Shown here in pieces: positions 20,651 to 39,857 of a stretch of DNA of 64,000 nt. The DNA is from Vermamoeba vermiformis. Its lineage: Eukaryota. Made by a program: the position numbers and the translations under genes. Every line of letters begins with the position of its first letter. The stretch's first letter is position 1. The stretch lies in NCBI GenBank assembly GCA_045837725.1, contig JBEWZL010000191.1, forward strand, positions 62,001 through 126,000, written 5' to 3'. The notes under the pieces were generated by a model. The model was not told the DNA's origin and did no database searches. It saw only the letters and a program-made list of their open reading frames with translations.

Positions 20651-22779
20651 TGAGAACTAGTAAATATACTCTTGTGGTGCCTCTATGGCAAAAATGAAAA
20701 AAAATGGTAAAAAGTTGGCAACCTGATGTTTTATTTCCTCCGATAAATAACGTCAAAAGCATCAATTGTTACGAAAGTTGCAAGCAAAGTGAGGAAAAAT
20801 TCAAATATAATATCTTTGGCAATAACGTTACCTATATAATGACCTAGTAAGCAAGAACGTCAAGTTGGTATAACAACTGGCTTGGACGTCACTCCAGCAC
20901 TAATAAAATAAACCGTAAATTTAGCTCCTGATCTATTTTTGGTGGCTAACACTCTTCGCGATATAGCCTTGATATTCCTCTAAATATAGTGTCAGTACTG
21001 CGTATAATCATATATTGTAGGTTGGTAAGTACTTTGCATTGATTGACTCCTTTTACCCATTTTTATACGAGATCTCCATTCATCTTGTTGCTGTTGAGTG
21101 ATCGGTTGTACCTAACTAATGTAATATTCGTTCACTGTACTCTAGTTGCACTATAACTGTTGCTTTGTTGCTGCGCCATTGTTCTATCGATTCGGTGAGA
21201 TAAACAATCTCCCGATTTAGATTAACTTTGCAACTATTTGAGGGTGTCTGTTTGTTACTGAATCAATCTAATCAACATTTCTAAACACGACAATAGCAGT
21301 GCCGAACCGCAATGGATGGTTTGGCCAGCAAAGAGCGGAGTACATCTAGAAGGCCGCTGAAATTGAAACCTGCAGGAGAAGTGGTTATAATTTCTGCACT
21401 ATAATTAATATTTTTTCTACTGAAGATAAACTTGGCAATTAATTCGAACGACCAGGAGATCCATACTTTTTGATTCGATCGATCGAAAAAACTGGTACGG
21501 AGTTTTTAAAAATAGTGCCTGCCAAACTCGTTAATTGCAATAGCAACACGCTATTTGTCGTACTGGTGCATCGATCTGTCTGCTGGACGCAGATATAGAT
21601 CCAGGTAACGCTGGCTTACCGAACGATCCAACACCTCAATAGAACGGATAAGATTTATTTTGAACTACCAGATCCGAGTTTAGTGTTTGTTGATAAACAA
21701 AAAAAAAAATTGTAGACGCATCAAAAAATAGCGCTTTTATCAATTAGCATTCCTTTAACCGAACACATAATGTATTTATTTAATGGCTTAATTATTCACT
21801 TCTTGGTCAAGAATCGAAGGACACCTATGAGCGATCTGATTTGATTGCTGGATTAAGCGGGTTCCAATTCTGATTTAAAGCACACCAAAATAACGAGTAA
21901 GTATGATAGTAAACATTACTAATTGTTACATGATTTTCCGCGCCTTTAGTTCAGCACGACTGATTCTCGAATTTTAAGATCATTTAAAGTCTAATTTTCT
22001 TTCTTTTTGATAATAATGCAAAAATGCGCTTCTGCTGTCAATAATCAAAATACAAGTAACTCAAGAATTTTCTATTATTTTAAACGGATATCCATTACCT
22101 CCTCAGAGCTCTCGTGGGGATGCCTGGCAGCTTTCTGATGGAAAACTTCGCCATATTGATCCTTTTCTCTAATTAGGCTATAACTAGTTTACACACCAAC
22201 CGCAACATAGAAGGCAAAAGTTAATATTGGCGAAACTTCCTCAATTTTTGGATCGATTGTTCCGCGGTACCAGCATTGCACGCTTAGCACAAATACGAAC
22301 TTGATTCAGTTTCGCTCATTTTGTGTCACGCAATAATATGAATGCTATGAGGCAGTACACTTGGACTTTGCGTAAGTGTTAAGTTGAGAATTTACCCGCG
22401 GAGGAGAAATTTGATGATAATCATTTAAGTGGTCTTTTCCTTTCGTTTGACGTACGTACATTACCAATAATTAGACCTGGCACAAGCCTCCATAAAATTT
22501 TACCGTAGTTGGCGCGTTCCATTCTCTTTGCTCAAAAAATCTATTCAGGTTCAGATATTTCGTTTTGTTTTGAACCATTTGCTGAAAAAAGCAACAAGGA
22601 TGATAGCTGGTGATCGAAAATAATTTACATATAAGTCAACATCGAGCGATAAAACGCTAAAAAATAAGAAACTTCATCGAAATTTTTTGATATTCGCATT
22701 GCGTCACCGCAACACCAGTTTAAAAAGCAGCAAAAATAGTCATTAGTAATCCAACTTTAGTATTATTCATAATCAAAAC

Positions 22780-23926
22780 ATGTCAACACGAACAATTGTT
22801 ATCACGCCTACTACTGAAAGGCGCATCCGAGAGAAATTTAAGCAGCCGGTCACTCCAAAAAGCGCGTTTGATGCTACAGCTTGGCGTCAATATTTCGTGG
22901 AGTTCTTGGGCACTCTGTTCTTCATTTACGTATCTACGGGTGCCGTAGTGTCAGTCACTTATGTGGGCCCGCTCAACTCTGGTGCCATCGCTGTCATTGG
23001 TCTCGCTTTTGGATTTGGCCTGGCAGCAATGATCTACGCGGCAGCGAATATATCTGGTGGTCATATCAATCCTGCCGTCACTATTGGATTCATCGTCGCA
23101 AACAAGATCTATGTTTTGAAAGGGTTTTTCTACATCTTCTCTCAGCTGGCCGGCGCAATGGTTGGATCCGCTTTGCTTCGCGCCACCACTCCTGAAATAG
23201 GTACGTACCAAAGTACTCTTCCCACGATCAATTTCATTAATGTATACTTTCTGACTATAGCGTGGCGTCCTGTGAATCTGGGTGCAACAGCAGTCAATGG
23301 CAACGTATCACTTGCGCAGGCAGTGTTTTTAGAGTTTATCATCACATTTATGCTCGTGTACACTGTGTTTGCGACGGTGGGTATTCCCAAGAGTAAGTTC
23401 ACTGTGATTGCGTATGTTGCAAAAATTACTGTCTGATCTACGTCGTAGGTCGAAACGGTATGGGCAAGTTAGCGCCATTAGCGATCGGCCTATCGGTTCT
23501 CGCTGGACACTTGCTCGGAGCACCATTTACAGGTCCATCAATGAATCCAGCACGAAGTTTCGTAAGTTTTTATTTTCATGAAAAAACAATAACACCGATT
23601 TATCCTTATCCTCATAGGGTCCGGCTGTAGTGTCTGGATACTGGGAAAATCAGTGGGTCTACTGGGTCGGTCCTTTTCCAGCAGGCATCATCGCTGGCTT
23701 GCTCTACAAATATCTTTTGCTCGACAAAATGCCGTTCTGGAACAGACCAGAAGTCCTCAAAGAGTTGCCGTTGGAAGTATATTCATCGGGTCCACAACAC
23801 GGCCTGCCGAAGACTGCGTGGGTTACTCAACCAGATATGGCAAATGCTGGTCCAGATCAAATCCCGCCTCCTGGTTTCCCCAATGCAGGTCCGAGTGCGC
23901 AAGGAGTCGTTCAAGAAGCTGCCTAA
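22780..23926 (+). CDS. Aquaporin (MIP family)
   Basis: [36 protein letters not shown]; three introns. Confidence 0.95.
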
Positions 23927-24094
23927 TAATAGTATCTATTTTATACATTTTCTGTTGTCTATGTGAAATAAATTTTGATTGGTTTATGAAAGAGGAATGA
24001 CAGCAGCGACAGGTGTCACACTCCACCATTTCGCTATTTGCACAAATCTTTATTTCTAAATCAACCCAGTGGCGAGCACATAATTAATTAAACG

Positions 24095-27000
24095 ATGGGT
24101 ATGTGGAGCTATCGGTACCGTGCGTTGCTCGTCGGCATGATTACGTTATGCTGGACGTTAGCCAACGTTGAGGCAGCAGGTCCGAGAGTTGTTTCATCAT
24201 CTTACACCCAAAAGAGTCTTGTATTTTTTGATGTCGGTTCTGACGTGGCTATTATGAATTTTGACTTCGATCAGGACATCTATTATCAAAAACAATGCTC
24301 GCCACGACCATTCGACCCGCCATTAGAACCAACTATAATTTTACCGTGCTGCAATGCTACATTGACGACGGGCTGCGTCACTCCTTCTGCGTCGTTTAGT
24401 AGATGCATTGATACTACCGTTCAGTATGATGAAGAATTTCATTTTCCTGGCAACTCAGTGGGCAAATTTGCTTACGAATTCCAAGTAGCTAATCCAGATA
24501 CCTGCCACTCGATCTTGATCGGATCAGCGATGAAATACGGTACGGCAATTTTAAAAAAATATGATATTAATCAATTATCACTATGGCGTAAGAGATCGTT
24601 TAACTTTAACTTAGGTGTTACGATCAATCGAATATATATTTAAATTTAATATTAATAATTGGTTGAAAAACTACTAACATCCTTTACATGAAATAGGAAT
24701 TATTACGGTCAAGCTTTTCGGCACACTAGAGACGTTTATTGCAGGCCAGAATGAAATGTTTTATTCGGGGCTTAGCGGATCGAACGGGTTATTCTATTGC
24801 TGCAGCATGATCCGTGGCAGAGGAGACTGGAATGGAAGATTATATGTGCGGATGGAATTAACGGTGGATTCCAAGTGGACAACTCAACTGCTTGGTATGC
24901 AGTTTAACAAATTGGATCGGATCATCCTTTTAATTCATGAACGGGCGTTTAAATTGCTGTCGAATTAACCATAAAGGCGATTATACCTTTATGCTATTGC
25001 TCAGTTTTTCTCGGTCACATAGCCGTGCACATCGCTCTAATTCACACTGACTAATTGACGTCTGTTTAGGTTCACCAATCATTCCATCGGTCGATTACTT
25101 CCATACAAGTAAGCGTGATCATTTACTAAGGCATGTTCACGAAGCTAATTATTATTCAGATCGAATTGAGATTCGTTGTGCGGATGGTTACAATTTCACT
25201 CGTTGTTTTTCGCAGCTTACGGGCGGTTGTTGGCCGATGGCACCAGCATTAGACGATCCTGCTTTTTATTACGTCACAATGTCAGCGTGAGTATATCTAG
25301 ACAAGAATTAAAGATTTTCTGGAGACTGACTGTGATCCACAGCGGAGTAATGCCCGAAGGTCAGATCTCATCAAAGAGGTTTTCTATTGGCTTGGTCTTC
25401 AATACAATCAGTTTCTCTAGTGGGAATGTAAGTGAAAGCTACTACAAGCTATTATTAACAATGAAAATAGTCCTCCGCGACGTATTTACTAGCAGATCGC
25501 AAAGTGCTCGATCCAGCGAACCAGTGCCAAGTCTATTTTCCATTTTTAGTCAACAAAGACGGTGAGGTATGTATCGTGCGTATGACATATTTTGAATCAC
25601 ACAATCGGCATTAACTTTTCGTTTACTTTGCATGAAGCCAGCAGACCCTGTACCCTTCCCCGTAGAGAAACCAGAAACAGATTGCTCAAGCCCCAAATTC
25701 TCCGGCATAGTCGATGGTAATATTATTCATTCCCTATTTAAGCTAGCTTAACAAAGTTCATCCGATAGGGATGTTGAAGTTGATCGATGACTACTCCAAT
25801 TTCAATTCTTCATCGCTAGAGGTTGCCGTACAAAAGTTTCTGTTAGGTTTGGGCGCGACGTGGCAAGAAGGCTGGACGTCCTGTTTCGCTCACATTACCA
25901 ATGAATTGCTTCAGAAGAAGACTAACCTGACTACTTTTGAAGACTCCACTTACTGCCCTTTCACGAATGCCTCTGACCCTCTTTATCTTAACGATCCGTG
26001 CTGTAATGTGCGACAGCAAGAGCTCGCGTGCTGTCGTCCCCGAAACATTACTGTCGACTACGAGCAATCAGTTGTCAATGCTGATGCTGTGGCCAATCAA
26101 TGTCAAAGACCGAAGTGCATTACAGAGACTATTGCCGATTTCATGACGCTGCAACAGTCAAGTGCTGATCGCATGACTGGATGTACTGCCACGACTTCAA
26201 AGGTAATTTCGTAGCAACTTCTTTTTGCTAGCCCACGCAGAATGTAATAACATCACACTTTTTTACAGAACTTAGATAGTACTGCGTTTAGCATCGTGGT
26301 CGAAGGTTGTTACGCAAGTTTGTTCGAAAGCTTTTGCGTCACGAAGTAGGTGTAGTCATGTCTACCATACTAATTTTGCTAATTATTATCTTTTAGTGCT
26401 GATTGCCGAACTTCGACTAAGAATGACGACTCGCAGTGCGTACAAGGAAAGTGTACTGTACCGTGCACTGCCAATGACGAGTGTTTGTCCAACGAGTGTA
26501 CTACGGTCAAGTTATTCAATGGGACTGTAGTTCCTACTTGTGTCATGCACAGCCTTTTGGACGCGAATAACATGCCGTTTGATCAAATTGCCACGCATTT
26601 CATTCAAGTAAGTATCGGTTGCGTGCAACAAAGTGCAGAGCTAACAAACTATATGATAGTGCGTGAACAGAACTATTGACCCTGTTCTGTTCGTGTACAT
26701 TGCACGAGCTGTTGGTGCGACGGAAATTTCAACGGCTGAAGAAGTCGCGGCTGCTCTTATAAAGTCACTTGGCTCCGATCAATGCATTGGTTTCAGCAGC
26801 TTGCTGTTTCCTACCATTGGAGTGCCAGCCAACGTCTCGACGCAAGAAACGTGCGAGTCTTCACAAAGTTGCAATTGGGCGCCATGCGATAGCAACACAA
26901 ATCCCTATTGCAACGCGGCACATTGCAATTCTACTGACGTTCCCGACGAGTTTTGCGGCTTTTGTTTGTACGACCAGTGCTTTGAAGTCTCGAGCTATCC

Positions 27001-30000
27001 CGTGTGCAAGTACTTAGCCTTGCCCTCAGAACAAAACTGCACGCTGTTTAACGGCCATTATAACCCGCTCAACTCGTTTTACCCTCCAAAGTGCATCCGA
27101 CCATCGTCAGTTGGCGAGTGTTATCCGCCTCAGTACTGCGAACAAACTAGCGGGAACTGTGCAGCCACGTGCTACATACCGGTCTACACCGATGCAACAA
27201 GTTGTAATGGACAAACAGTGGGTACTCAAACCGCTACTTGGCAGTCTTGGACGAGAAATAGCACGACGTACGGTCTTTGCACAGTTCCAGTCACAACTTT
27301 GGATGCGTGTCTTAACCTTTCACCTGATGCGAGATTTTGGTACGTAGCTACCTAGTGAAGCTTACTTGCGCGTTTATGTATTGATACGACATATTCTAAC
27401 GTTGAAATTATGTAGGCCGGGAACAGTGTATTCACCGGACAATGCGGCTCAATCAAATCTCAACGACGAAGGATTTTGTACTGCACTCGGTACATGCAAT
27501 CTCGATCTTACAGCACTTGATGTCAATCAACTGCAACAGCTGAAAGTGAAATTCAGTTTTGAGTGCAATCAGTACTGGTGCAGCGGTGCAAATAGAACTA
27601 ACGCGGTTGACTGCGATAATTATGGTAAGGAGTTCTCGATGTTTCCGATGTGTTACTAATATCACTATAGGCTATTGTAACGACTGGACGGGCTGTTACT
27701 TGCCGTATTTGGAAGACAGATCAATTCCTGCTCCGTGTCCTGAAAACTCGCTTTGGACTCCGAAAGGCTGCTTTGTTGAAGCAGGCATCATTGGTCGCCC
27801 AGAGGATTGTATTAGCCCCAAGTAAGTCTTTGTAGTAACATAGTAACAACTCCTAATCATATAACTGTATCAGTCAATGGAGAAATGCTTCGACTACTCG
27901 CGCTGAATGTGAAAGTGTGAAGCTTTGTACAGAGCCAGAAATCGTCAATGCGGTTGGTAAGTTTGTTTAAAAAAGGAGAGCGTTATAGCGTACAAAGCAA
28001 CTAACGCCTTGCGCACAGCATTTGCACCTCGTGACCGTGCAGCTCGTCCCAACAACGTGTCTTTCAAAGACGCGGGAGAATGTGCCAAGTGCGGTGGCAA
28101 ATTCGAGCCCTATTATGAATGGAAGGCACTAGTACGTCTAGTATCAACCCTAATCTAAGAAGAAGTTCTAATAAGACTCTCTTTAACTAGGCTGAATGGG
28201 TGCCACCTCAATGGAGAGGCTTTGAGTGGCGCAAGCGAGAAATGAAGAGTTTGAACAAGTGGGTGCCGCTCATGGATTATGACAAGGCAGTCTCAATGAC
28301 CTACACCGTCGTTGCACGTCGTTACGCAGATATTTTGTCATCAGAGTTGCTTTGCCGGTACGTAGTCAGCAAGATAGTGATCGCATAGTACTATGCCAAT
28401 GTATCGCAGATTCGGTGAAATTCAATCGGCAGTGAGCTCTATTGTCTGTGACTGCACGGACAAGTCAAATGATTGCTCTGACGCTATATCATCTGTTCGT
28501 GATCCCGCTGTAGGTCTCGTGCAAATCTGCACTATGGCCGCGTTCTCACAAACATTTTCTCGTGGCTATTTATACTCTGAGGTACGTCGATAGTCAACTT
28601 AATGCTATACTTACTTACTGTTCTTCTAGCAACCTATTCTTGTCGGTGCAATGGGCTGTGCGCCAGTGCGAGTTGGAGTTGTGCCAATCAGTCAGTTCAA
28701 CTCACGACAAACCATCACTCTGTCAAGTGTTTCTTTGTCATCATCGAGAGATGCACAAGATGGACAAGAACGATTCTACAAGAACTCGAACAATATTGTC
28801 GTTGGAGAGGTACTTGGTGATGGTTTGAGTGTTGACTTCCTTGGCCGTGAGATTCAAGGCGTTAAAGCATGCATTTTCTTCCCTGACGTAAGTAATAGTA
28901 ATATATCAAAAGCATCAGTCTTCTAATGTTTGCGTAGCCAACAACATCTTCATTACCAAATGTCACGCAGTTTGCTGTGTTTTCGATTCCTCGAGGCAGC
29001 AGAGATTTGATCATTACCATTAATAACCCAATCGGTGCTTCTGAAGGGTAAGTCCTTCGTTATTATTTACTGCAACGATGACTAATTCAAAGTATTAGCC
29101 AATACTGCTTTGACGTCGACACCGCAGGCGAAGTGTACTTCGTCATAGCTCTGGTGGATGGTTGGCAAGATACGGACTTTAGCTCGACACTGTCTGCGGG
29201 AGAGTTAGCTCTGGTGGCTATTGGCATTATTCTGTACCTGGTCGTGCTCTTCGCCGCTGTTTATCACTTCGCCGTCTCAATCGTGACACGTGACCCAACG
29301 AAACCTCTTCTCGCTCAATCACGCATTGCGTTGGGTCTTTTGATCATATTCTTGCTCAGTAAGGACAAACCTCTATCCTAATAGTCACGTACCAAACTGA
29401 CCTGCGTCAACAGTTCGAGTGCTCTACTTGTTGCTCTTTGTTAGTGGCACGTTCAACAAATCTCAGTCAGCAGACGTCATTTTCTCAGAGCTCCCGGCAC
29501 TGGTGTTCTTGAACATCTATTGCATCATCGTGCTGAGATGGTGAGTCATTGTTTGACACGTGTCAACCAGGACCCTCGCTAACAGTTTTCAGGGCTGCAC
29601 TTTACCACTTTGGCTTGAAAGACGGTGCAAAGCAGTCATTCAGAAGACTCAAACCAGCTCTCTACGTGTTCGACGGTGTACTAGGCGCAGCATTCATCAC
29701 GTTGCTGATCGTGTACTTCTCACTGAGCGATCAGATCACCATCACATGCGAGTCAAATGACATCGATGTCAACTCTGCCACTCCAAAGCAAATCGTTGCA
29801 ATCGTGTACAAAGCATTCTTTGCAGTTGTTTGCATCATCTTGTCGATTGCCTTCTTGGTTTATGGCTCTCGCATCATTCGATCATCAACTTCGTTCACCG
29901 TCAGATCGTTGGATCGTGCCGAACAACGTGCAATCAAGAAGCGTAAACAGGATGTGCTAAACGTAAGTGAAAAACTCGCTGTAGAAGTACGCGTACTAAT

Positions 30001-31508
30001 CCACCGAACAGAAAATCGTGATTACAGTGGTGTGCACGTTGTGTTTGTTGGGTCAAGCAGCCAATCTTCTTCGAGCATCAGCAACGAATGAACCAGGCAT
30101 TTACATCTTGATCTTCTTGTACCCAATCGAACTTCTTCCCAGCATCATGTTCATCATTATTCTCAAGAAAGTACCCTTCTTTTATCATGCCTCGCTGTTT
30201 GCCAGAAAACCACAACTTGAAGTCAATCGCAACTGGAGAAGATCTGTCAAGCCGCAAAGCCACATTACTTCGAAGAAACGTAACACCGCTTATGGCGAGA
30301 TCAACGCTCGGTTGATTGCTGAAGAGGAGGCTGAAGAGGTACGTAGCATTTTAGATTGGCAGGGACTTAATGACTCACACGTCCCCAAGGCTGCAAATGC
30401 CGTGCCAATGTCCGATACATTTAACGGTGAGACAAACATCGCTTTTGCCGAGCTCAAGGTTGCGCAGGAGATCGGAGCAGGCAACTACGGAAAGGTCAAT
30501 CTCGGAAGTAAGTCATAAAACGACGCTGCCAGTGCATTTTTAGTACTAAGACTAACACCTTCTGCAGCTTGGAAAGGGTCACAAGTTGCATTGAAACGAA
30601 GCAAAGCGTTCGAAAGGAGTGAGTTTGTGAGAGAAGCGAAACTTGTCATGACTTTGCCTCCTCATCAGAACGTCGTTCAAACATTTGGATTGACCAACGA
30701 TGGTTTCAACCTAATGGTTGTTATGGAGTACTGTAGTGGCGGCTCACTCGACGTCAAGTTGTTTGATTTGCCAGATCCAGTGAGTGACAAAGAGAAACTT
30801 GCGATCTTGATTGGCATTGCTCAAGGCATGCAACACTTGCATCAAAACAAGATTATCCATAGAGATCTTGCTGCACGTAACATTCTCCTCAATAACAACG
30901 TGCCAAAGGTTTCGGTAAGTGCATCCGCGATCCTGGTGTATTAACTGGTCACTGACAAACATTGAAAGGACTTTGGTTTGTCTCGTAAAGTCGACGATGT
31001 GTTGAGAAATAGTACAACAAGGAATAACGTGGGACCGATTCGTTGGATGGTAAGAAATGAGACCTAAGATTCACATATGCGCACATCACACGACGAACAT
31101 TTGCTTGTATCACATATCTACGCATATCTTAATGAAATTTATAATGTATAGGCACCTGAAGCACTCAGAGACGGCACATACAGTGCAAAGACAGACGTGT
31201 GGTCATTCGGAGTGGTCATGTTCGAAGTGATCGTGCAGTCAGAACCACACGTGGAAGAAGATCCGTTGTTCATTGGCATCAAAATTCGTGATGGTGCATT
31301 CTTTCCACGACTTCCAGCAACATCGACGAATGATCAAGTGCTCAGAAACTTGATGGAACAGTGTTGTCGCAAAGACCCCAATGAACGACCTGTATGTTCG
31401 ACTCTGGTCATTTAATAACTTAACTAACTGTGTTTTATTTCATAGGACTTCAACAATATCTGTCAAGTGCTTGTGAATCGATGGAACGAACTCTACGGCA
31501 AAATGTAA
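24095..31508 (+). CDS. Giant receptor, copy 1: signal peptide, Cys-rich ectodomain, 7TM (THH1/TOM1/GPR137-like), tyrosine-kinase-type domain
   Basis: Many exons. Seven hydrophobic helices with ELP, FLVYG and ELLPS motifs. Kinase motifs GAGNYGKV, VALK, HRDLAARN, DFG, GPIRWMAPE, DVWSFGV. Confidence 0.85.
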
Positions 31509-31750
31509 TTGGCCTTTCAGAAGCGCGTTTGCTTGGAAGCCGTCATTGTAATTAAGCTTACTATATTATTGTCTTTGTGTTGATAAATTTATCAACTACT
31601 GATTTGTTGTGTCTCGTGATTCGTTTTTTGACGTTTTTTGACACGACGGTTGACATTTCGGGTTCCTGTCCGGTCTCCAATTTTGCGTCGGTCATAAAAA
31701 TACGGCTAGTCCCTTATGACAACAAGCGGTTGTATATTTTTAATGCCGCC

Positions 31751-34700
31751 ATGTCCACTTTGATTCGTTTTGTATTTACTTTGTGTATTATTTGTTTTGT
31801 TTCGTTAGTTAGAGCAGATGGGCCTGCTGTAGTATCTTCGTCCTATACAGAAAAGAATTTAGATTTTTTGGACGTTGGTTCTGAAGTCGTTATTTTGAAT
31901 TTCGATTTCGACCAAGACATCTATTTTCAACAAGAATGCCCACAACAACCAGGGGACTCTCCAATAGAGCCCACAATAATACTACCATGTTGCAATTCAA
32001 CTCTTGCAGTAAATTGTGCGACTGCGGACGCACAAGACGGATATTGCTTGGACACCACGGAAGATCGCGAAGAAGAATTTCGTTTCCCGCACAGTTTTAA
32101 TTCTAGATATGAATTTCAAGTGGGTAACCCTGCGACATGCCACTCAGTAATGTTTGGCACGAAAATGGATTACGGTAAGATAGATCTGATAAAAGGCGCC
32201 AAAAGCGCAACACGAAAAAATCCGATAATTGAGCTAATAATACCATTTTCACAAATTTACTCGTATGCAAAATATTTAGCGCTGATTATATAGGGATTTT
32301 AAACATCAAAATGTTTACTCGCGTTAATGCTTACGTCAATGGCAAGCCAGACTTTTACACAGCTTTTGTTGGTGCCAATAGCATATTCGTATGTTGCTCT
32401 ACAATTAGATCTCGTAACCCTTCATGGAACGGCAAACTTTATGTTCGCGTCGAGCCATCTACGGATGCCAAGTGGACTTCGCAACTGCTCAGTACGTAGA
32501 CTTATTATTAGGCTTACATTTTTTCATAATTTGCTTCCGTTCGTTTCATGAAAGCTGATCTTGTGCTCTTAGATTCCCCGATCGTCAGCGCGACTGATTA
32601 TTTTCATACGAGTAAGCTTAGAATATCAATACCAAAGGACAAAGCGACTTATTATCTTTAGATCGACTTGAGATTCGTTGCGCAAACGGCTACAATTACA
32701 CGCGTTGCATTCCGCAGTTGACGGGCGGATGTTGGCCACTCGCGCCAGCCAAGGACGATCCTCCTTACTATTTCATAAATATGGCATCGTAAGTACCAAG
32801 CTCATTGCATTTAAATGATTAACGATTTGATAGTGGCAAACAACCTGAAGGAGAAATTATCGGCCGAAGATTTTCTTTGTCGTTGGCTTTTAAGACCAGC
32901 AGTTTTGTTTCTGGAACGGTGCGCACGTGCATTTTATATTCATATTCATTAGCTTATTCTGATGTACCATCTTAGTCTTCTACGACGCTTTATATTCTTG
33001 ATCGAGCAGTGTTGGATCCGTCAAATCAATGCTTCGTGCACTTTCCTTATTTGGTCAATAGTAACGGAGAGGTATGTATTCTTATAGTAGCCACCGGCAC
33101 TATTATTTACGTCCTATTTGTAGCCTGCAAAACCTACGGCATTCCCTGCAGAAAAGATCGAAACATGCTCGCAAGCAGCATTTTCGACTCGACTTGACGG
33201 TAAGATTTAAGCTTTCAATCACTTTTATTGACGTTTCTAAAGGTTTTTTGACCCAAATTAACGATTTGTCTGGAAAATTCAACGGTTCAACAACCGAAAT
33301 GGTCGTGCAAGATTTTGTCGCTGTAAGTTGACGAGACGTATTCTCATTTATTATCACCTTAATAATGACAACGCAACTATTTCCAGCTTTTGGCCAACAC
33401 CTGGAGTAAAGAATGGACGTCGTGCATTTCATTTATTAGCAAGGGTTTGTTGGAGACTAATGTGGAGTCAGCAGAGTTCATCGATTCGACGTTTTGTCCT
33501 TTCTTCGACCCAACTGACCCACGTTACTTATACGACCCTTGCTGCAATGTTCGGCAACAAGAGTCAGAGTGCTGCCGTGTACGAGATTTGAATGTTGACG
33601 ATTATCAAAATACCGTTGTAAGTGCGAATGCTGTTGCCCAACAATGCAAGCGACCCAAGTGCGTGACGGAAACTATCAACGATTACTTGGCTCTGCAGCA
33701 ATCCACGGCCGATAGAATCACTGGTTGTACTGGACAAAGCTCAAAGGTAAAAAATTACGTGACGGAAGTTCGGCTAAACAAAATTGACACTTTTTGTTTT
33801 AGACCATTAGCAGCGCTGTGTTGACGCAGACTTTGGGATGTTCCAACAACTTGTTCGAGACAAAATGCTTGGCCTCGTACGTTTCAAACGAAGAAACTTG
33901 CCGATTCTAACGAGAATGCAGGTCTGATTGCACTACAGTTTGTACGACAGGTGGATTTTGTGCGGTGCCTTGTACCACGGATGAAGATTGTTTGTCTCGC
34001 TCTTGTTCTCTGACAGCAGCAATAGACGGCAAGAACGTGTCTATTTGCAAGATGATCAATGCGTTGGATATCAACAACGTGCCGTTTGACCGAATCAACG
34101 CTCAATTCCTTCAAGTACGCAACTTACAATTTTCATATGTACTAATACTAATACCTCTTTAGTGCATTGAAAAAACTGTCGATCCTGTGCTATACTTCTA
34201 TATTAAGCGTCTAGTGGGAGCATCAGGTAAGACCTTTTGTTTATCAGGCCAAGAAAAAGTTATAACAATTGTTTAGCCTCCGATGATGTCAACAAAGTTG
34301 CGGACTTGGTACTTCAACTAGCAGGCAATGAAGAGTGTTTTGGATTCGGAAATTTCCTGTTCCAACCGTTGTCTATTCCGACCAACATCTCAACGCAAGA
34401 AACGTGTGACTCGTCTCAGAGTTGCAATTGGGCACCTTGTGACAGCAATGCAAGTTCGAATTGCAACAACAGGACCTGCACGGAGGCAGTTGGCTCCGAG
34501 TACTTCTGCGGCTATTGCTTGTACGACCAATGCATTGAAATCTCGAGCTTCCCCGTATGCAAGTACACGGCCCTGCCCTCAGAACAAAACTGCACTTACT
34601 TCGGTGGTTTGTACAATGGGCTTAATCCTACGTACCCGAAATGTGTCAGACCGTCCAGTCTCGAGTGTTACCCGCCCCAATTCTGCGAACAAAGCAACGC

Positions 34701-37700
34701 GCCTTGCTCGGCCGTGTGTTACGTGCCAGCTTACACTAACGCAGCGACATGTGATGGCACGGCAGTTGGCACTCAGGTGGCCAGCTTCAAGGCCTGGACG
34801 AGGGATGGTAATTCATACGGTCTTTGCACAGTGCCAGTCACGACATTAGACGCGTGTTTGAACCTTTCACCTGACACGAGATTTTGGTACGTTTTCTAAA
34901 ATTTCACGCTAGGTTCGCTGTCACTAACTCTATAACAGGCCTGGCACGGACTTTTCCGAGGACAGTTCTTCTCAAACAATCTTCAACAGTGAAAACACGT
35001 GCACGCTTGCTGGAATGTGTAACTTGGACATTTCGAACCTCAATAACTTGGAGTTTAGTACTCTCAACACGTACGTCAAGGCTTGCAGGCACGTGTTCTG
35101 CGAGCTGTAACAGGCCTCCGCTGCCATGTACGGATTGCACTACTGCCGAGGCCTGTGACGCGAATGGTACGTAATCAACGGCAACTTTTTGCAGGTCTAA
35201 TTCTTCAATAGGTTATTGCAATCAAAACGTTGGCTGTTACGCACCTTTTTCGGATCAATGGGCTGATTCTCCGTGTCCTGAAGGCACCGTATGGACGGCG
35301 ATTGGTTGTATCATTGACCCGTCAATTATTTCTGACCCCGCTAATTGCACTAGCCCTAAGTAAGCTATATTAGTGTTATACCGAAACTAATAGCATTAGT
35401 GTCTGGCACGGGGCGGCAACAACACGTGAGGAGTGTGAAAGAGTCAAAATATGCGCTGAACCTGCCATTATCAATGCTGTTTGTAAGTCTTAAAAAACGT
35501 TGACCAAGCGTGTTCTGAAAGCTAATTTTCTTATTTAGCCTTCACAACTAAGGACCTGACAGCACGTCCAAATTCGATCTCTTTCAAGAACGAGAGCGAG
35601 TGTACCAAGTGCGGAGGTACGATTGAGCCGTACTGGACTTGGACAGCTGGTGAATGGCGACCAGGCCAGTTCGTGCCATTCGAATGGCGCAAGCGAGAAA
35701 TGAAGGCGGTGAACAAATGGACAAAGCTGATTGATCAGTCAGAGGCACAACTATTCGTTAACAAAGTCGTCTCGCAACGCTATGCTGACGTCTTGTCATC
35801 TGAAATGCTGTGCAGGTAAAAAAGACTATGGTCCTATCATTATACTTAATGCTAACCCTTGCCGAGTAGATACGGTCAGTTGCAATCTGCGGCCTCGGAG
35901 ATTGTGTGCGATTGTGCTAGCGATGGCACAAACTGCAACACATCAGTCGCAACCATTCGAGACCCCCCTGTTGCCCTAGTCCAGTTCTGCACGTATGCGA
36001 AGTTCAACCAAACATTCTCTCGTGGTTATTTGTACGCCGAGGTCAGTAGTCTGTTTGACACCTCGTGACACTTTCTTTGACACGTGTCATTTAGAATCCG
36101 TCAACGGATCTGGGCTGTGCGCCAGTACGAGTGGGAGTTGTGCCAATCAGTCAGTTCAACTCACGACAAACCATCACTCTGTCAAGTGTCTCTTTGTCAT
36201 CATCGAGAGATGCACAAGATGGACAAGAACGATTCTACAAGAACTCAAACAATATTGTTGTTGGAGAGGTACTTGGTGATGGTTTGAGTATTGACTTCCT
36301 TGGCCGTGAGATTCAAGGCATTCAAGCATGTATATTCTTCCCTGACGTAAGTATTCGATACCATTATTCGACACGCGTTCTCACTTCATTAGCCAACGAC
36401 ATCACGTCTGCCGGGCATCACTAAGTTCAGCATTTTCTCGATCGACAGAACGGCTACAGGTCTCGCCATTTCAGTTAACGAGACATATGATGCTTCTGAA
36501 GGGTAAGTATATCATAGACTAATAGCAGTCCTAAGACTAGTCCTTCAGGTATCATTGCATTGACTTGGTCAACATGAACGTGGGCAAGACATTTTTCACG
36601 ATTGCACTGGTCGACAGCTGGCAAGACACGCTATTCAGTTCAACACTGACTGAAGGCGAGTTAGCACTTGTAGCTATTGGCATTGTGCTGTACTTGACTG
36701 CTCTCTTTGCTTCGGTCTACCACTTCGCCGTGTCAATCGTGACACGTGACCCAACGAAGCCTCTTCTCACTCAGTCACGCATTGCGTTGGGTCTTTTGAT
36801 CATATTCTTGCTCAGTAAGTACAAACCTCTATCCTAATCGTCACGTGCCAAACTGACCTGTATCATCAGTTCGAGTGCTCTACTTGTTACTCTTCGTGAC
36901 GGGTACCTTCAAGAACTCTCAGTCAGCAGACGTCATTTTCTCAGAGCTCCCGGCACTGGTGTTCTTGAACATCTATTGCATTATCGTACTGAGATGGTGA
37001 GTCGTCATTTGACACGTGTCAACTAGTACCCTCACATGACATTTTCTGACTTTTTTGCAGGGCTGCACTTTACCACTTTGGCTTGAAAGACGGTGCAAAG
37101 AAGTCTTTTAGAAGGCTTAAACCTATTCTATATGCCTTTGACGCCCTGTTAGGTGCAGCATTCATCACGTTGCTGATTGTGTACTTCTCACTGAGCGATC
37201 AGATCACCATCACATGCGAGTCAAATGACATCGATGTCAACTCTGCCACTCCAAAACAAATCGTTGCAATCGTGTACAAAGCATTCTTTGCAGTTGTTTG
37301 CATCATCTTGTCGATTGCCTTCTTGGTTTATGGCTCTCGTATCATTCGATCATCAACATCGTTCACAGCAAGGTCACTCGATCGCGCTGAACAACGTGCA
37401 ATCAAGAAACGAAAGAGGGACGTGTTGAACGTGAGTACTTATAATGGCCGATAAGAACAGCAAAACTAATTGTTTAACGCGTAGAAAATCGTGATTACAG
37501 TGGTGTGCACGTTGTGTTTGTTGGGTCAAGCAGCCAATCTTCTTCGAGCATCAGCAACGAATGAACCAGGCATTTACATCTTGATCTTCTTGTACCCGAT
37601 CGAACTGCTCCCCAGCATCATGTTCATCATCATTCTCAAGAAAGTTCCGTTCTTTTATCGTGCCCCAGCTCTTTGACAGCAAGAAGCTCCTCAATATCAA

Positions 37701-38960
37701 TCGCAGTTCTTGGCGCAAGTCGACCAATCAGAAGAAGCGCAACACCGTCTATAGCAACATGAACGCTAAACTCATGGCTGAGGAGGTACGATTAGCTCTT
37801 GGACGGACCTTGTAATTAATGTTGATTGTTGTATAGGACGATGACAACGCCGTGCCAATGTCTGACACGTTCCAAGATGAGTCAAACATTGCGTTCTCTG
37901 AGATCCAAGTGGCGCAAGAGATCGGAACAGGCAACTACGGAAAGGTCAATCTCGGAAGTAAGTCACAAGACGCACTGACTGCTGCCAATACATTTTTAGT
38001 ACTGATACTAACACCTTCTGCAGCTTGGAAAGGGTCACAAGTCGCACTGAAACGAAGCAAAGCGTTCGAAAGGACTGAGTTTGTGAGAGAAGCGAAACTT
38101 GTCATGACATTGCCTCCTCATCAGAACGTCGTTCAAACATTTGGATTGACCAATGACGGCTTTAACTTGATGCTTGTGATGGAGTACTGTAATGGCGGGT
38201 CATTGGATGTGAAGTTGTTTGACTTGCCAGATCCAGTGAGTGACAAAGAGAAACTTGCGATCTTGATTGGCATCGCTCAAGGCATGCAACACTTGCATCA
38301 AAACAAGATTATTCATCGAGATCTCGCTGCACGTAACATTCTCATAAATAACAACGTGCCTAAAGTAGCAGTAAGTTTCCATGAAAATTTTTCCGTTTTT
38401 CCGCATGTTTGACACGTGTCATTTAGGATTTCGGCTTGTCTCGTAAGGTCGAAGATATTTTACGCAGCAATACCACACGAAACAATGTCGGCCCGTTACG
38501 ATGGATGGTAAGACCCCTACTTTACGCAGCTTTTGTAGTGTTCGCTAATATTTTATTTCCTTTTTAGGCACCCGAAGCACTCAGAGACGGCACCTACAGT
38601 GCAAAGACAGACGTGTGGTCATTCGGAGTGGTCATGTTCGAAGTGATCGTGCAGTCAGAACCACACGTGGAAGAAGATCCGTTGTTCATTGGCATCAAAA
38701 TTCGTGATGGTGCATTCTTTCCACGACTTCCAGCAACATCGACGAATGATCAAGTGCTCAGAAACTTGATGGAACAGTGTTGTCGCAAAGACCCCAATGA
38801 ACGACCTGTATGTTCGAGTCTGATCAGTCATTTTATCACCTAACTAATTATTAGAGTCGTCCATTTAATTACTGAGACTAACTGTTTTCTCTCGTAGGAC
38901 TTCAACAACATCTGTCACGTGCTCGTGAATCGGTGGAACGAACTCTACGGCAAAATGTAA
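31751..38960 (+). CDS. Giant receptor, copy 2 (tandem paralog of 24095-31508); apparent +1 frameshift at 37663-37666
   Basis: Colinear with copy 1 from AVVSSSYTEK to RWNELYGKM*, with the same 7TM and kinase motifs. Confidence 0.8.
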
Positions 38961-39040: not shown

Positions 39041-39857
39041 TTATTGCTGTTTGTGCTTCGCGTAATTTTCTTTCAATTTGTTAATGTACAATTCGTCATC
39101 GCCTTTAGTCCACAAGCAGAACACGATCCGCTCTATTTTTTGCGCGTAAGAAGAGCTATTTAACCATTCCATAACAGTTTCAACTGCTACTTGTGCCGCA
39201 AGAGGTTTAGGATGGCCATAGAACCCCGTACTTATGCTGCAGATCGCGACGGATCGGATGTCGTATTCTTCGCATCGCTTAAGTATAGTAGTATAGCAAG
39301 ACTTTAATAGGTGTAGTTGAGGCTCTTGTTTTTCATTTAAATAAGGCCCAACTGTATGCAGAACGAATTTGGCGGGAAGTTTGTAACCTTTCGTGATCTT
39401 AGTGTCGCCGGTCATACATAGGCCTAATAAGGCACATTCTCGTTGTAATAATGGTCCTGCTGCCTTGTGAATAGCTTCATCTATGCCTCCTCCACCGAGT
39501 AAGCCTTCGTTAGCTGCGTTGACGATCGCATCTACCTCCAATCGAGTAATATCGCCTTTCCAAACGGAAATCTAATATGCATAATATTGATAAATGCCAT
39601 TTTGGTATATTAATGTTATCGTTAATAGGTAACCACATCCAAATTTCGATAATTTTTTTAAAAATCTTATTTTTGCTTACTTTATCAGTACCGATATCAG
39701 GTACTGTTGCCATTGATTCAAGGGTCTTATAATTATTTTTGCACGCATAATTTTTACGTCTAAGCTCGAGATCTGTCACTAAACTCGTCGTCCAATCCGC
39801 TGGATCGATTGGTAGACTCAATATGCGCTTTCTTTCTTGTTCATACCACTCACCCAT
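39041..39857 (-). CDS. MacroD-type macrodomain ADP-ribosylhydrolase / O-acetyl-ADP-ribose deacetylase
   Basis: ISVWKGDITRLEVDAIVNAANEGLLGGGGIDEAIHKAAGP, HTVGP, ISTGFYG; one intron. Confidence 0.9.

What the first reader, a model, noticed from the sequence alone, without database searches (positions are those of the whole stretch)
24095..38960. Giant Cys-rich / 7TM / tyrosine-kinase receptors in tandem
Each gene encodes a signal peptide, a very long Cys-rich ectodomain with no domain I recognise, a THH1/TOM1/GPR137-like 7TM bundle and a kinase with TK signatures (HRDLAARN, GP(I/L)RWMAPE). This joins GPCR-like and RTK-like architecture in one chain. 7TM-kinase fusions are known in a few protists (e.g. 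Dictyostelium 7TM kinases, GPCR-PIP kinases), but I do not know this combination. The activation loop (VDDVLRNSTTRNNVGP) has Ser/Thr and no Tyr.
Basis: partly seen in the sequence, partly recalled or inferred. Interest (0 to 1): 0.75.

Follow-up and report, generated by a model that had tools for sequence, protein, structure and literature searches.

The report
Giant amoebal seven-helix receptor kinases
Two neighbouring amoeba genes each encode one huge membrane protein that joins a cysteine-rich outer domain, a GPCR-like seven-helix bundle and a tyrosine-kinase-like enzyme; such receptor-kinase fusions are known in protists, but I found no description of this combination.

Summary
Gene 1 (24095-31508, + strand) has 28 exons and encodes 1895 aa. 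It has a signal peptide, a ~1255-aa ectodomain with 73 Cys, seven TM helices and a linker. It ends in a complete kinase with HRDLAARN and GPIRWMAPE.

Three things show one chain. First, 30012-30507 is open in frame from TM6 to the kinase glycine loop. Second, spliced contigs of a related organism confirm 15 of the 27 introns. Third, a 1895-aa Vermamoeba vermiformis transcript ORF (P0194, 83% identical) has the same architecture; Pfam scores it above cut-off for THH1/TOM1/TOM3 and for PK_Tyr_Ser-Thr.

Gene 2 (31751-38960) is a diverged tandem copy. One extra C (37663-37666) stops its frame 11 codons past my TM7 boundary, yet its kinase exons show dN/dS 0.07.

The ectodomain plus 7TM is an old amoebozoan family found in Dictyostelium, Pyxidicula and Trichosphaerium, with 44 invariant Cys. 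Those members carry no kinase domain, so the kinase looks like a lineage-specific addition. It groups with amoebozoan receptor kinases beside animal tyrosine kinases.

7TM-kinase fusions (GPCR-TKL/K) are already described in oomycetes, amoebozoans, ciliates, choanoflagellates and sponges. This is therefore a new variant of a known kind. Function is inferred only.

The parts
24095..31508 (+). Gene 1 CDS: 28 exons, 1895 aa. Exons: 24095-24539, 24697-24894, 25070-25108, 25160-25286, 25343-25427, 25471-25566, 25638-25716, 25769-26202, 26269-26345, 26397-26607, 26660-27339, 27416-27624, 27671-27821, 27874-27956, 27998-28131, 28191-28357, 28410-28581, 28630-28887, 28938-29047, 29099-29358, 29414-29540, 29593-29962, 30012-30338, 30390-30507, 30568-30914, 30969-31049, 31152-31391, 31446-31508.
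   Evidence: Own splice model. All 15 joints listed by read laying for the spliced contigs of run X5 coincide with introns of the model. It has the same length as transcript ORF P0194 and is 83% identical to it.
24095..24175 (+). Signal-peptide-like N-terminus (aa 1-27, MGMWSYRYRALLVGMITLCWTLANVEA).
   Evidence: Hydropathy peak in my own script and coordinates. No SignalP run.
24176..29192 (+). Ectodomain, aa 28-1283 (exons only). It has 73 Cys, of which 45 lie in aa 428-927 (25981-27771), and no internal repeat.
   Evidence: No Pfam family. It is homologous end to end with kinase-less proteins from three other amoebozoans, with 44 invariant Cys in a 5-row alignment.
29193..30170 (+). Seven-TM block, aa 1284-1557 (TM1 29193-29261 through TM7 30096-30170), of THH1/TOM1/TOM3 type.
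30012..30507 (+). Stretch open in frame from TM6 and TM7 through the linker to the kinase glycine loop. It holds a 51-nt in-frame intron at 30339-30389.
   Evidence: No stop in frame. P0194 and P0003 lack exactly these 17 aa. P0171 shows the same TM7-to-G-loop continuity in another copy.
30279..30293 (+). Conserved RN[TAP][AV]Y (NxxY) motif in an otherwise divergent cytoplasmic linker.
   Evidence: Present in 5 of 5 linkers seen: gene 1, gene 2, P0194, P0003 and P0171.
30447..31475 (+). Kinase domain, aa ~1633-1885. Motifs: G-loop 30474-30497, VALK 30585-30596, HRDLAARN 30858-30881, DFG 30969-30977, and an activation loop running to WMAPE at 31160.
   Evidence: Pfam PF07714 on exons and on P0194 at 209.5 bits. 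Motif positions.
31751..38960 (+). Gene 2, a tandem paralogue with 30 exons. Its ectodomain is 57% identical to gene 1 and its 7TM 94%.
   Evidence: All 29 introns have GT..AG ends.
37663..37676 (+). Gene 2 frame break: a CCCC run with one base more than gene 1, then TGA at 37674-37676. As assembled the product is 1535 aa without a kinase.
   Evidence: DNA alignment of the two genes and frame analysis.
37667..38960 (+). Gene 2 linker and kinase exons, open in the +1 frame and under purifying selection.
   Evidence: one frame open to the stop at 38960. dN/dS against gene 1 is 0.068 with dS 0.37.

Best explanation
These are two tandem members of a small family of single-chain receptor kinases, from an amoebozoan that is most likely Vermamoeba or a close relative.

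Shown:
- One polypeptide runs, from outside to inside, through a signal peptide, a ~1255-aa disulfide-rich ectodomain and a seven-helix bundle of the THH1/TOM1/TOM3 (GPR137-like) type with a GPCR fold.
- It continues through a ~75-aa basic linker with a conserved NxxY, then a catalytically complete kinase with tyrosine-kinase hallmarks.
- The ectodomain plus 7TM module is ancient in Amoebozoa and elsewhere ends shortly after TM7, or in Dictyostelium with a ~100-aa tail, with no kinase domain.
- The kinase groups with single-pass receptor kinases of the same lineage.

Inferred:
- An existing 7TM surface receptor acquired the kinase of a local receptor-kinase family by gene fusion.
- The ectodomain binds an external or luminal ligand or surface.
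- The signal passes through the helix bundle, or through receptor clustering, to the tethered kinase.
- The kinase then phosphorylates itself (perhaps at the linker Tyr) and cytosolic substrates, on Tyr or with dual specificity, without needing a G protein.
For: One chain:
- 30012-30507 is open in frame from TM6 to the G-loop.
- All 15 joints listed for the spliced contigs of run X5 fit introns of the model. They include the six that link the last ectodomain exons, the 7TM exons and the first kinase exon: 28887/28938, 29046/29098, 29358/29414, 29539/29592, 29962/30012 and 30507/30568.
- P0194, a Trinity transcript ORF of Vermamoeba vermiformis in EukProt, is 1895 aa and 83% identical. Pfam finds THH1_TOM1-3_dom at 42.1 bits (aa 1273-1560) and PK_Tyr_Ser-Thr at 209.5 bits (aa 1636-1883).
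- P0171 repeats the TM7-linker-G-loop frame in another copy.

Topology: positive-inside loop charges.

7TM:
- 13 of 22 relatives scanned reach the PF06454 cut-off.

Old kinase-less module:
- In-box phmmer aligns gene 1 aa 124-1555 to Pyxidicula P0150 (E 1e-81) and aa 148-1481 to Trichosphaerium P0166 (E 1e-90). It also matches both halves of Dictyostelium firmibasis P0145.
- There are 44 invariant Cys.
- P0150 and P0167 end 26 and 40 aa after TM7. In P0145 the next unit follows a ~100-aa low-complexity tail.

Kinase:
- All catalytic motifs are present.
- Pro stands at the PKA-T201 position, which Goldberg et al. use as a mark of Tyr-accepting kinases (passage read in PMC1420674).
- The best solved relatives of P0003 are JAK, EGFR, Src/Abl, BTK, ITK and Eph at 132-150 bits, with MAP3K12 at 136.
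- In the tree, the clade with the Vermamoeba TIG-receptor kinase and Kelch-receptor kinases has support 98/94. That clade joins Planoprotostelium LRR kinases at 90/94, next to the animal TK clade.

Selection: dN/dS is 0.068 (kinase) and 0.076 (7TM) between the two genes, while most introns are only 42-53% alike.
Against: - No experiment bears on ligand, localisation, activity or specificity.
- The activation loop has no Tyr, so RTK-style loop autophosphorylation on Tyr is not available.
- THH1/TOM1 and GPR137 proteins are described on tonoplast or lysosomal membranes, not the cell surface (abstract of PMC3234234 in the listing; table row read in PMC12716839). Plasma-membrane placement is therefore assumed.
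- Gene 2 is broken in the linker as assembled.
- P0194 is a Trinity assembly from another strain or species and could in principle be chimeric.
- X5 is only guessed to be RNA by the tool, its contigs are short (350-1503 nt), and it barely covers 30168-30424 (depth 0.8).
- The tree has 33 rows picked from hits to this kinase, with no curated TK/TKL reference set.
Confidence: 0.8

Rival explanations
1. Phagosome or lysosome lumen sensor. The protein sits in endolysosomal or phagosomal membranes, as GPR137 and plant TOM1 sit in lysosome and tonoplast. The Cys-rich domain faces the lumen and reports engulfed prey or cargo to the cytosol through the kinase. This differs from the main reading only in location and ligand.
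For: The 7TM belongs to PF06454. GPR137 is listed as lysosomal in PMC12716839 (table row read). TOM1 is described as a seven-pass protein of intracellular membranes working with ARL8 (abstract of PMC3234234, listing). The conserved NxxY in the linker resembles sorting and endocytosis signals; that resemblance is recalled, not tested.
Against: Nothing here tests localisation. A signal peptide with a large glycosylatable, disulfide-rich domain fits the cell surface equally well. The nearest relatives of this subfamily are uncharacterised.
Confidence: 0.2
2. G-protein-coupled receptor with a built-in regulatory kinase. The bundle signals through heterotrimeric G proteins, and the tethered kinase phosphorylates the receptor's own loops and tail for desensitisation or arrestin-type scaffolding, as proposed for oomycete GPCR-TKLs.
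Against: No G-protein coupling was reported for THH1/TOM1 or GPR137 proteins in the passages I read. The solved GPCRs share only 6-16% identity with the model. The kinase has TK-type rather than GRK/AGC-type motifs.
Confidence: 0.12
3. Artefact. A kinase-less receptor gene and a separate downstream kinase gene were wrongly joined by my model and by a chimeric Trinity contig. Gene 2, which stops after TM7, would then show the true state.
For: Gene 2 as assembled ends at 37674-37676. All relatives outside this lineage lack the kinase. RNA reads of the same species label barely cover gene 1.
Against: No stop lies between TM7 and the G-loop in gene 1, nor in P0171. The 51-nt intron inside the linker is removed in frame in P0194 and P0003. 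An X5 contig joins 30507 to 30568. No start codon with upstream gene features is needed. The gene 2 break is a single base in a C run, and its kinase shows dN/dS 0.07.
Confidence: 0.03
4. Adhesion or scaffold protein with an inactive kinase (pseudokinase).
For: The activation loop lacks Tyr. The ectodomain is very large, like those of adhesion receptors.
Against: The G-loop, VALK Lys, HRD, DFG and APE are all intact in gene 1, gene 2 and P0194. The kinase is under strong purifying selection.
Confidence: 0.05

Closest known systems
GPCR-TKL/K and GPCR-TK 'GPCR-bigrams': oomycete GPCR-TKLs, Dictyostelium 7TMK1/7TMK2, ciliate and amoebal GPCR-type TM kinases, acanthoecid choanoflagellate GPCR-TKL/K, sponge and choanoflagellate GPCR-TK
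   Same: An N-terminal seven-helix receptor-like domain and a C-terminal TK/TKL-type protein kinase on one chain. No member has been functionally characterised, according to PMC12716839 (passage read). The language-model look-alikes of P0194 aa 1260-1895 are 584-675-aa kinase clusters from Ciliophora and Oomycota, scoring 0.97-0.98. This is a lead only.
   Different: This protein carries a ~1255-aa Cys-rich ectodomain and a PF06454-type bundle. None of the 46 hits to its TM4-5 exon among 1.84 billion representatives has a kinase after the bundle: 39 match the receptor part, and the one with a kinase match, P0162, is a chance hit that does not match the bundle. Three more of those hits (P0121-P0123) are single-exon pieces from near-identical copies, which cannot show either way. 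I could not fetch 7TMK1/2 or oomycete sequences, so homology of the bundles was not tested. The papers argue that such fusions arose repeatedly, and this looks like one more independent case.
Kinase-less amoebozoan homologues: Dictyostelium firmibasis KAK5582521.1 (P0145, named 'THH1/TOM1/TOM3 domain-containing protein'), Pyxidicula operculata EukProt P020868 (P0150), Trichosphaerium sp. MMETSP0405 transcripts (P0166, P0167)
   Same: The same ectodomain and the same bundle, alignable over about 1400 residues (E 1e-81 to 1e-90), with 44 invariant Cys. The copies are also in tandem in D. firmibasis, where two units are merged into one 3464-aa model.
   Different: P0150 and P0167 end 26 and 40 aa after TM7 and have no kinase. 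In P0145 a ~100-aa low-complexity tail without a kinase precedes the next unit. Identity to gene 1 is only about 25-28%.
THH1/TOM1/TOM3 (Pfam PF06454) and GPR137
   Same: The bundle meets the Pfam cut-off in orthologue P0194 (42.1 bits against 25), covering profile positions 4-261 of 273.
   Different: By the passages I read, plant TOM1/TOM3 and animal GPR137 are about 300-400-aa proteins with no large ectodomain and no kinase (PMC12716839 says GPR137 has no other domain). The window exon on its own scores below the cut-off, at 19.7 bits.
Adhesion GPCRs
   Same: A very large extracellular region in front of a GPCR-fold bundle. The top Foldseek row was CD97 (E 1e-4, TM 0.36, rmsd 11.2 A).
   Different: Pfam finds no 7tm_2, GPS or GAIN at E <= 0.01. 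I saw no H-L-T/S type GPS motif before TM1 in the 5-row alignment (by eye). Adhesion GPCRs have no kinase.
Receptor tyrosine kinases of animals, and single-pass receptor kinases of Amoebozoa (Vermamoeba TIG-type P0172, Kelch-type, Planoprotostelium LRR-type)
   Same: Kinase motifs HRDLAARN and P-I-R-W-M-A-P-E. The best solved relatives are TKs. The kinase is 50-55% identical to the amoebal receptor kinases and forms a clade with them.
   Different: Seven helices instead of one, no activation-loop Tyr, and a position outside the animal TK clade in my tree.

Membership tests
GPCR-kinase fusions (GPCR-TKL/K, 'GPCR-bigram' architecture) | Seven TM helices with a GPCR-type fold, N-terminal to the catalytic domain | tested here: met
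GPCR-kinase fusions (GPCR-TKL/K, 'GPCR-bigram' architecture) | C-terminal TK/TKL-type protein kinase on the same polypeptide | tested here: met
   Open frame from TM6 to the G-loop. Transcript ORF P0194 carries both Pfam domains. X5 contains the joint 30507/30568.
GPCR-kinase fusions (GPCR-TKL/K, 'GPCR-bigram' architecture) | Common descent with the described oomycete or Dictyostelium (7TMK1/2) or choanoflagellate fusions | not tested
   Those sequences could not be fetched with the tools. None appeared among the 46 hits to the TM4-5 exon, which is weak evidence.
THH1/TOM1/TOM3 domain family (Pfam PF06454) | Score at or above the Pfam gathering cut-off (25 bits) | tested here: met
   Orthologue P0194 scores 42.1 bits. 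13 of 22 relatives scanned reach the cut-off. A single window exon reaches only 19.7 bits. The spliced window protein could not be sent to the tool.
Tyrosine kinase (TK) group / receptor tyrosine kinases | Catalytic-loop HRDLAARN (or HRDLRAAN) and the P+1 motif P-[IV]-[KR]-W-[MT]-A-P-E, with no Ser/Thr at the PKA T201 position | tested here: met
   HRDLAARN at aa 1750 and GPIRWMAPE ending at aa 1798. The T201 criterion comes from PMC1420674 (passage read). The motif definitions themselves are partly recalled.
Tyrosine kinase (TK) group / receptor tyrosine kinases | Placement inside the TK clade | tested here: inconclusive
   In the 33-row tree, the amoebozoan clade holding gene 1 joins the animal TK clade and one nematode kinase at an open fork (96/91), with MAP3K-type and plant RLK rows outside. 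In the PDB search, TKs score 132-150 bits and MAP3K12 136.
Tyrosine kinase (TK) group / receptor tyrosine kinases | Single-pass membrane topology and activation-loop tyrosine(s) | tested here: not met
   Seven TM segments. There is no Tyr between DFG and APE in gene 1, gene 2 or P0194.
Tyrosine kinase (TK) group / receptor tyrosine kinases | Phosphorylates tyrosine | not testable with these tools
   Needs phospho-amino-acid analysis of the expressed domain.
Adhesion GPCRs | GAIN domain with a GPS motif next to TM1, and a secretin-like (7tm_2) bundle | tested here: inconclusive
   Pfam on P0194 at E <= 0.01 lists only PF06454 and kinase families. No GPS-like motif was seen by eye. The juxtamembrane part of the model has pLDDT 30-63, so its fold is untested.

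The most novel reading that the evidence does not exclude
This may be an independently evolved receptor tyrosine kinase built on a seven-helix chassis. A TOM1/GPR137-class bundle, whose known relatives work on lysosome-type membranes, would be wired directly to a TK-like kinase. It would be fronted by a 1250-aa disulfide-rich sensor that amoebae have kept since before Tubulinea, Discosea and Dictyostelia split.

If so, it would let a phagocytic amoeba report prey or surface contact from the cell surface or the phagosome lumen straight into phosphotyrosine signalling, without G proteins. The kinase-less relatives would also give a natural before-and-after pair for studying how a 7TM conformational change can drive a tethered kinase.
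Probability: 0.2. Interest if true: 0.7.

Novelty: new variant of a known kind. Interest (0 to 1): 0.5.

Why it matters
According to the 2025 eLife survey (passage read), no 7TM-kinase fusion has been functionally characterised in any organism, and such fusions appear to have arisen several times.

This case has three useful properties.
- The unfused ancestor-like form survives in related amoebae, so the fusion event can be dated and compared.
- The bundle belongs to the little-understood TOM1/GPR137 class rather than to a classical GPCR class.
- The kinase carries tyrosine-kinase hallmarks in a lineage where phosphotyrosine signalling is still being mapped.

It also adds an uncharacterised, deeply conserved amoebozoan ectodomain with 44 invariant cysteines. 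No Pfam family or solved relative by sequence was found for it. If the window comes from Vermamoeba or a close relative, as inferred, the host is a common water-system amoeba, so its surface receptors may matter for prey and symbiont recognition.

Tried and rejected
- **Ectodomain exon 26660-27337 against the large protein database.** With lengths 'longer' there were 522 candidates and none at E <= 0.001. The ESM Atlas gave no usable hit for the same exon.
- **Whole genome.** None is held for this window. One search was a frame slip of mine.
- **Metagenome contig scan with the TM4-5 exon.** 254 pattern matches, none confirmed by tblastn. I did not use the second scan, because contigs known to hold 93%-identical exons (P0122) were evidently not in that collection.
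- **RNA raw reads of the same species label.** X19, X20 and X21 laid 7, 0 and 13 reads out of about 13 million records read per run. Most were only partly on the stretch and look like paralogue transcripts. No RNA holder was listed. I draw no conclusion on expression.
- **AlphaFold2 of the ectodomain (P0194 aa 28-1130, 14-row alignment).** Mean pLDDT was 38.9, so no fold search was run on it. Two earlier alignments (A2, A3) misplaced short exon pieces and were dropped.
- **Profile of the ectodomain plus bundle (A4) against PDB sequences.** 0 hits at E <= 1.
- **Self-BLAST of the ectodomain.** No internal repeat at E <= 10.
- **First splice models.** My first dynamic-programming models contained errors: a false micro-exon at 24095-24098, skipped exons, and a false intron at 37515/37616 that removed TM6-7 in gene 2. 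They were corrected by paralogue comparison and by X5 joints.
- **WD40 proteins among the hits to the TM4-5 exon.** P0140 and P0141 are WD40 proteins by Pfam. P0148, P0159, P0161 and P0163 also match only a short Ser/Arg-rich stretch. None of the six matches the full gene 1 protein. I treat them as chance.
- **Gene conversion as the sole cause of the near-identical C-terminal halves.** Rejected, because exons are about 90% identical while most introns are only 42-53% alike.
- **Earlier notes of this scan.** None exist on this genome.
- **Literature.** Searches found no paper describing a PF06454-type 7TM fused to a kinase, or this ectodomain family. Supplementary tables of PMC5784254 and PMC12716839, which list GPCR-TKL accessions, were not opened and could bear on this.


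Full report
**What is there**

The window is intron-rich eukaryotic DNA. G+C is 0.35-0.47 in 2-kb windows. Introns are short, with GTAAGT-like donors and CTAAC-like branch sites. No whole genome is held for it.

I built splice models with my own dynamic-programming script. I then corrected them by comparing the two tandem copies and by read evidence.

Gene 1 runs from 24095 to 31508 in 28 exons and encodes 1895 aa. Gene 2 runs from 31751 to 38960 in 30 exons. All 27 and 29 introns have GT..AG ends. The neighbours are an aquaporin-type gene upstream and a Macro-domain gene on the other strand downstream.

**Anatomy of gene 1**

- Residues 1-27 form a signal-peptide-like hydrophobic start.
- Residues 28-1283 form an ectodomain with 73 Cys and 18 N-glycosylation sequons. 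Of the Cys, 45 lie in aa 428-927, and there is no internal repeat.
- Seven hydrophobic segments lie between aa 1284 and 1557. The alternate loops and the tail are rich in Lys/Arg (2, 5, 9, 9), while the other three loops have 1, 0 and 1. This fits an outside N-terminus and a cytoplasmic C-terminus.
- A basic linker of about 75 aa follows.
- The kinase domain has GAGNYGKV, VALK, HRDLAARN, DFG and GPIRWMAPE.

Pfam finds PK_Tyr_Ser-Thr on 3 of 12 exon pieces. It finds only a sub-threshold THH1_TOM1-3_dom match on one 7TM exon (19.7 bits, cut-off 25). It finds nothing at E <= 0.01 on 6 ectodomain pieces.

**Is it one chain?**

Four lines of evidence say yes.

1. The stretch 30012-30507 is open in frame from TM6 through TM7 and the linker to the glycine loop of the kinase.
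2. Contigs of run X5 lack the introns. This run comes from a related organism, and the tool only guesses that it is RNA. All 15 joints the tool listed coincide with introns of my model: 12 within the tool's stated cut ambiguity and 3 with a few substituted letters at the edge. Nine more joints were not shown. The listed joints link the last ectodomain exons to the TM exons (28887/28938, 29046/29098, 29358/29414, 29539/29592, 29962/30012). They also link the TM7-linker exon to the kinase (30507/30568, 30913/30969, 31048/31151).
3. The cluster of the kinase hit P0003 contains P0194, a 1895-aa Trinity transcript ORF of Vermamoeba vermiformis from EukProt. It is 83% identical to gene 1 overall: ectodomain 79%, bundle 94%, kinase 95%. 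Pfam finds THH1_TOM1-3_dom at 42.1 bits (aa 1273-1560, profile 4-261 of 273) and PK_Tyr_Ser-Thr at 209.5 bits (aa 1636-1883), with nothing in the ectodomain. P0194 and P0003 lack exactly 17 aa of my first model. These correspond to an in-frame 51-nt GT..AG intron at 30339-30389, which brings gene 1 to the same 1895 aa.
4. P0171, a 98-aa ORF from another contig, runs from the end of TM7 through a different linker into the glycine loop. A 7.7-kb public contig carries a TM4-5 exon (P0121) and a kinase exon (P0001), each 99% identical to gene 1.

There is therefore a small family of such genes in this lineage. The match to P0194, together with the published 41.7% G+C of V. vermiformis (table read in PMC7125106), suggests the window comes from Vermamoeba or a close relative. 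That is an inference.

**Gene 2**

Gene 2 has an ectodomain only 57% identical to gene 1, but a bundle that is 94% identical and a kinase that is nearly identical.

Relative to gene 1 it has one extra C in the run 37663-37666. The frame then ends at TGA 37674-37676, giving a 1535-aa receptor without a kinase. The linker and kinase exons remain open in the +1 frame up to 38960.

Between the two genes the kinase has dS 0.37 and dN/dS 0.068, and the bundle has dN/dS 0.076. Exons are about 90% identical, while most introns are 42-53% alike. Both kinases have therefore been kept by selection since the duplication. The break is either an assembly error in a homopolymer or a very recent change.

**What the parts are**

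*The bundle.* A full HMMER scan of 1.84 billion representatives with the TM4-5 exon gave 46 hits at E <= 0.001. In-box phmmer with the spliced gene 1 protein matched 39 of them in the receptor part. One (P0162) matched only the kinase, and six did not match; two of the six scanned by Pfam are WD40 proteins, and all six are chance hits to a short Ser/Arg-rich stretch. I scanned 22 with Pfam: 15 hit THH1_TOM1-3_dom at E <= 0.001, and 13 reached the cut-off.

*Kinase-less relatives.* Three hits are long and named. P0145 is Dictyostelium firmibasis KAK5582521.1, 3464 aa, with two units in one model. P0150 is from Pyxidicula operculata, 1564 aa. P0166 and P0167 are from Trichosphaerium sp., 1414 and 1496 aa. 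They align with gene 1 from about aa 124 to the end of the bundle (E 1e-81 to 1e-90). A five-row alignment has 86 invariant columns, 44 of them Cys. P0150 and P0167 stop 26 and 40 aa after TM7. In P0145 the next unit follows a ~100-aa low-complexity tail, and no kinase is present.

The giant ectodomain plus bundle is thus an old amoebozoan receptor-like family. It is present in Tubulinea, Discosea and Dictyostelia. The kinase is found only in the Vermamoeba-type copies.

Two earlier notes of this scan describe TOM1-like 7TM proteins with shorter Cys-rich ectodomains in Naegleria-type amoebae, also without a kinase. I did not check them.

*Fold.* A model of family member P0135 covers the juxtamembrane region plus the bundle and used a 33-row alignment. 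It has pLDDT 80-95 in the helices but only 30-63 in the beta-rich part before TM1.
- Foldseek finds only GPCRs at modest scores (best E 1e-4).

So the bundle has a GPCR fold. This says nothing about G-protein coupling.

The ectodomain model (P0194 aa 28-1130) failed, with pLDDT 38.9. A profile of the ectodomain plus bundle finds no solved relative by sequence.

*Kinase.* The nearest proteins are unnamed 700-800-aa receptor kinases with Kelch repeats and a Vermamoeba TIG-type receptor kinase, at 50-55% identity. Next come Planoprotostelium LRR receptor kinases at 43-45%, then animal RTKs and plant RLKs below 40%.

Against solved structures, the 94%-identical P0003 scores best with JAK, EGFR, Src/Abl, BTK, ITK and Eph (132-150 bits). 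MAP3K12 falls in the same range at 136 bits.

In a 33-row maximum-likelihood tree:
- Gene 1 and P0194 group with the Vermamoeba-type receptor kinases (98/94).
- That group joins the Planoprotostelium kinases (90/94).
- That amoebozoan clade meets the animal TK clade at an open fork (96/91).
- MAP3K-type, plant RLK, ciliate and bacterial rows lie outside.

The rows were chosen from hits to this kinase, so the tree is only indicative. Pro at the position of PKA Thr201 fits the criterion that Goldberg et al. use for Tyr-accepting kinases.

I conclude that the kinase is TK-like and probably Tyr- or dual-specific, and that it was drawn from the local receptor-kinase expansion.

**How it probably works**

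Shown: the topology, the intact catalytic motifs, purifying selection, the fusion itself, and the existence of unfused relatives.

Inferred: the ectodomain binds something outside the cell or inside a vesicle lumen. The signal reaches the kinase through the bundle or through clustering. The kinase then phosphorylates itself and cytosolic targets.

The linker is poorly conserved except for RN[TAP][AV]Y. This motif is present in 5 of 5 linkers seen and is a candidate phosphorylation or sorting site.

Two variants remain open. One is a lysosome or phagosome location, by analogy with GPR137 and TOM1. The other is a G-protein-coupled mode with the kinase as a built-in regulator, as proposed for oomycete GPCR-TKLs.

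**Comparison with what is known**

Fusions of a 7TM domain to a protein kinase have been described in several lineages.
- Dictyostelium 7TMK1/2 (PMC1420674, passage read).
- Oomycete and amoebozoan GPCR-TKLs (PMC5784254 and PMC6033456, passages read).
- Ciliate and amoebal GPCR-type TM kinases (PMC10463195, passages read).
- Acanthoecid choanoflagellate GPCR-TKL/K, and choanoflagellate and sponge GPCR-TK (PMC12716839, passages read). This paper also states that none has been functionally characterised and that the fusion arose repeatedly.

The general architecture is therefore known. What I did not find in print is a fusion that uses a PF06454-type bundle, or any account of this ectodomain family. 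P0194 sits in EukProt without a name.

I file this as a new variant of a known kind, with moderate interest.

Noticed in passing
window 37663-37676: Gene 2 carries one extra C in a C run relative to gene 1 and stops 11 codons past my TM7 boundary. Its downstream kinase exons are intact and under purifying selection (dN/dS 0.07). This is either a homopolymer assembly error or a very recent truncation back to the kinase-less form seen in other amoebae.
   Followed up: partly
window 30279-30293 (gene 1); the same motif in gene 2, P0194, P0003 and P0171: An RN[TAP][AV]Y (NxxY, once NPAY) motif is the only well-conserved element of the otherwise divergent cytoplasmic linker. It is present in 5 of 5 sequences seen.
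   Followed up: partly
window 54218-56365, minus strand: Long open frames, one of 501 aa, match DUF1538 (PF07556, E 2e-48). I recall this family as mainly bacterial and archaeal. The local G+C is higher (0.46) than in the flanks (0.35-0.38). It may be a laterally acquired gene.
   Followed up: no
window 22750-23997 (+) and 39044-39571 (-): The flanking genes are an MIP/aquaporin-type gene upstream (PF00230, E 2e-36) and a Macro-domain gene downstream on the other strand (PF01661, E 8e-38).
   Followed up: no
window 3246-6192, minus strand: Lipoxygenase, D-arabinono-1,4-lactone oxidase (ALO) and FAD_binding_4 matches lie close together. One 458-aa open frame carries both ALO and lipoxygenase matches. 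These may be two adjacent genes or an unusual fusion.
   Followed up: no
P0145 (Dictyostelium firmibasis KAK5582521.1): This 3464-aa annotated protein contains two complete ectodomain-plus-7TM units in series. It is most likely two tandem genes merged by the annotation. Tandem duplication of this family therefore also occurs in Dictyostelium.
   Followed up: partly
window 15764-16486 (-), 51018-51854 (+), 60273-60575 (+): Ordinary eukaryotic genes: VPS11 N-terminal propeller, a bZIP factor and a papain-family protease.
   Followed up: no
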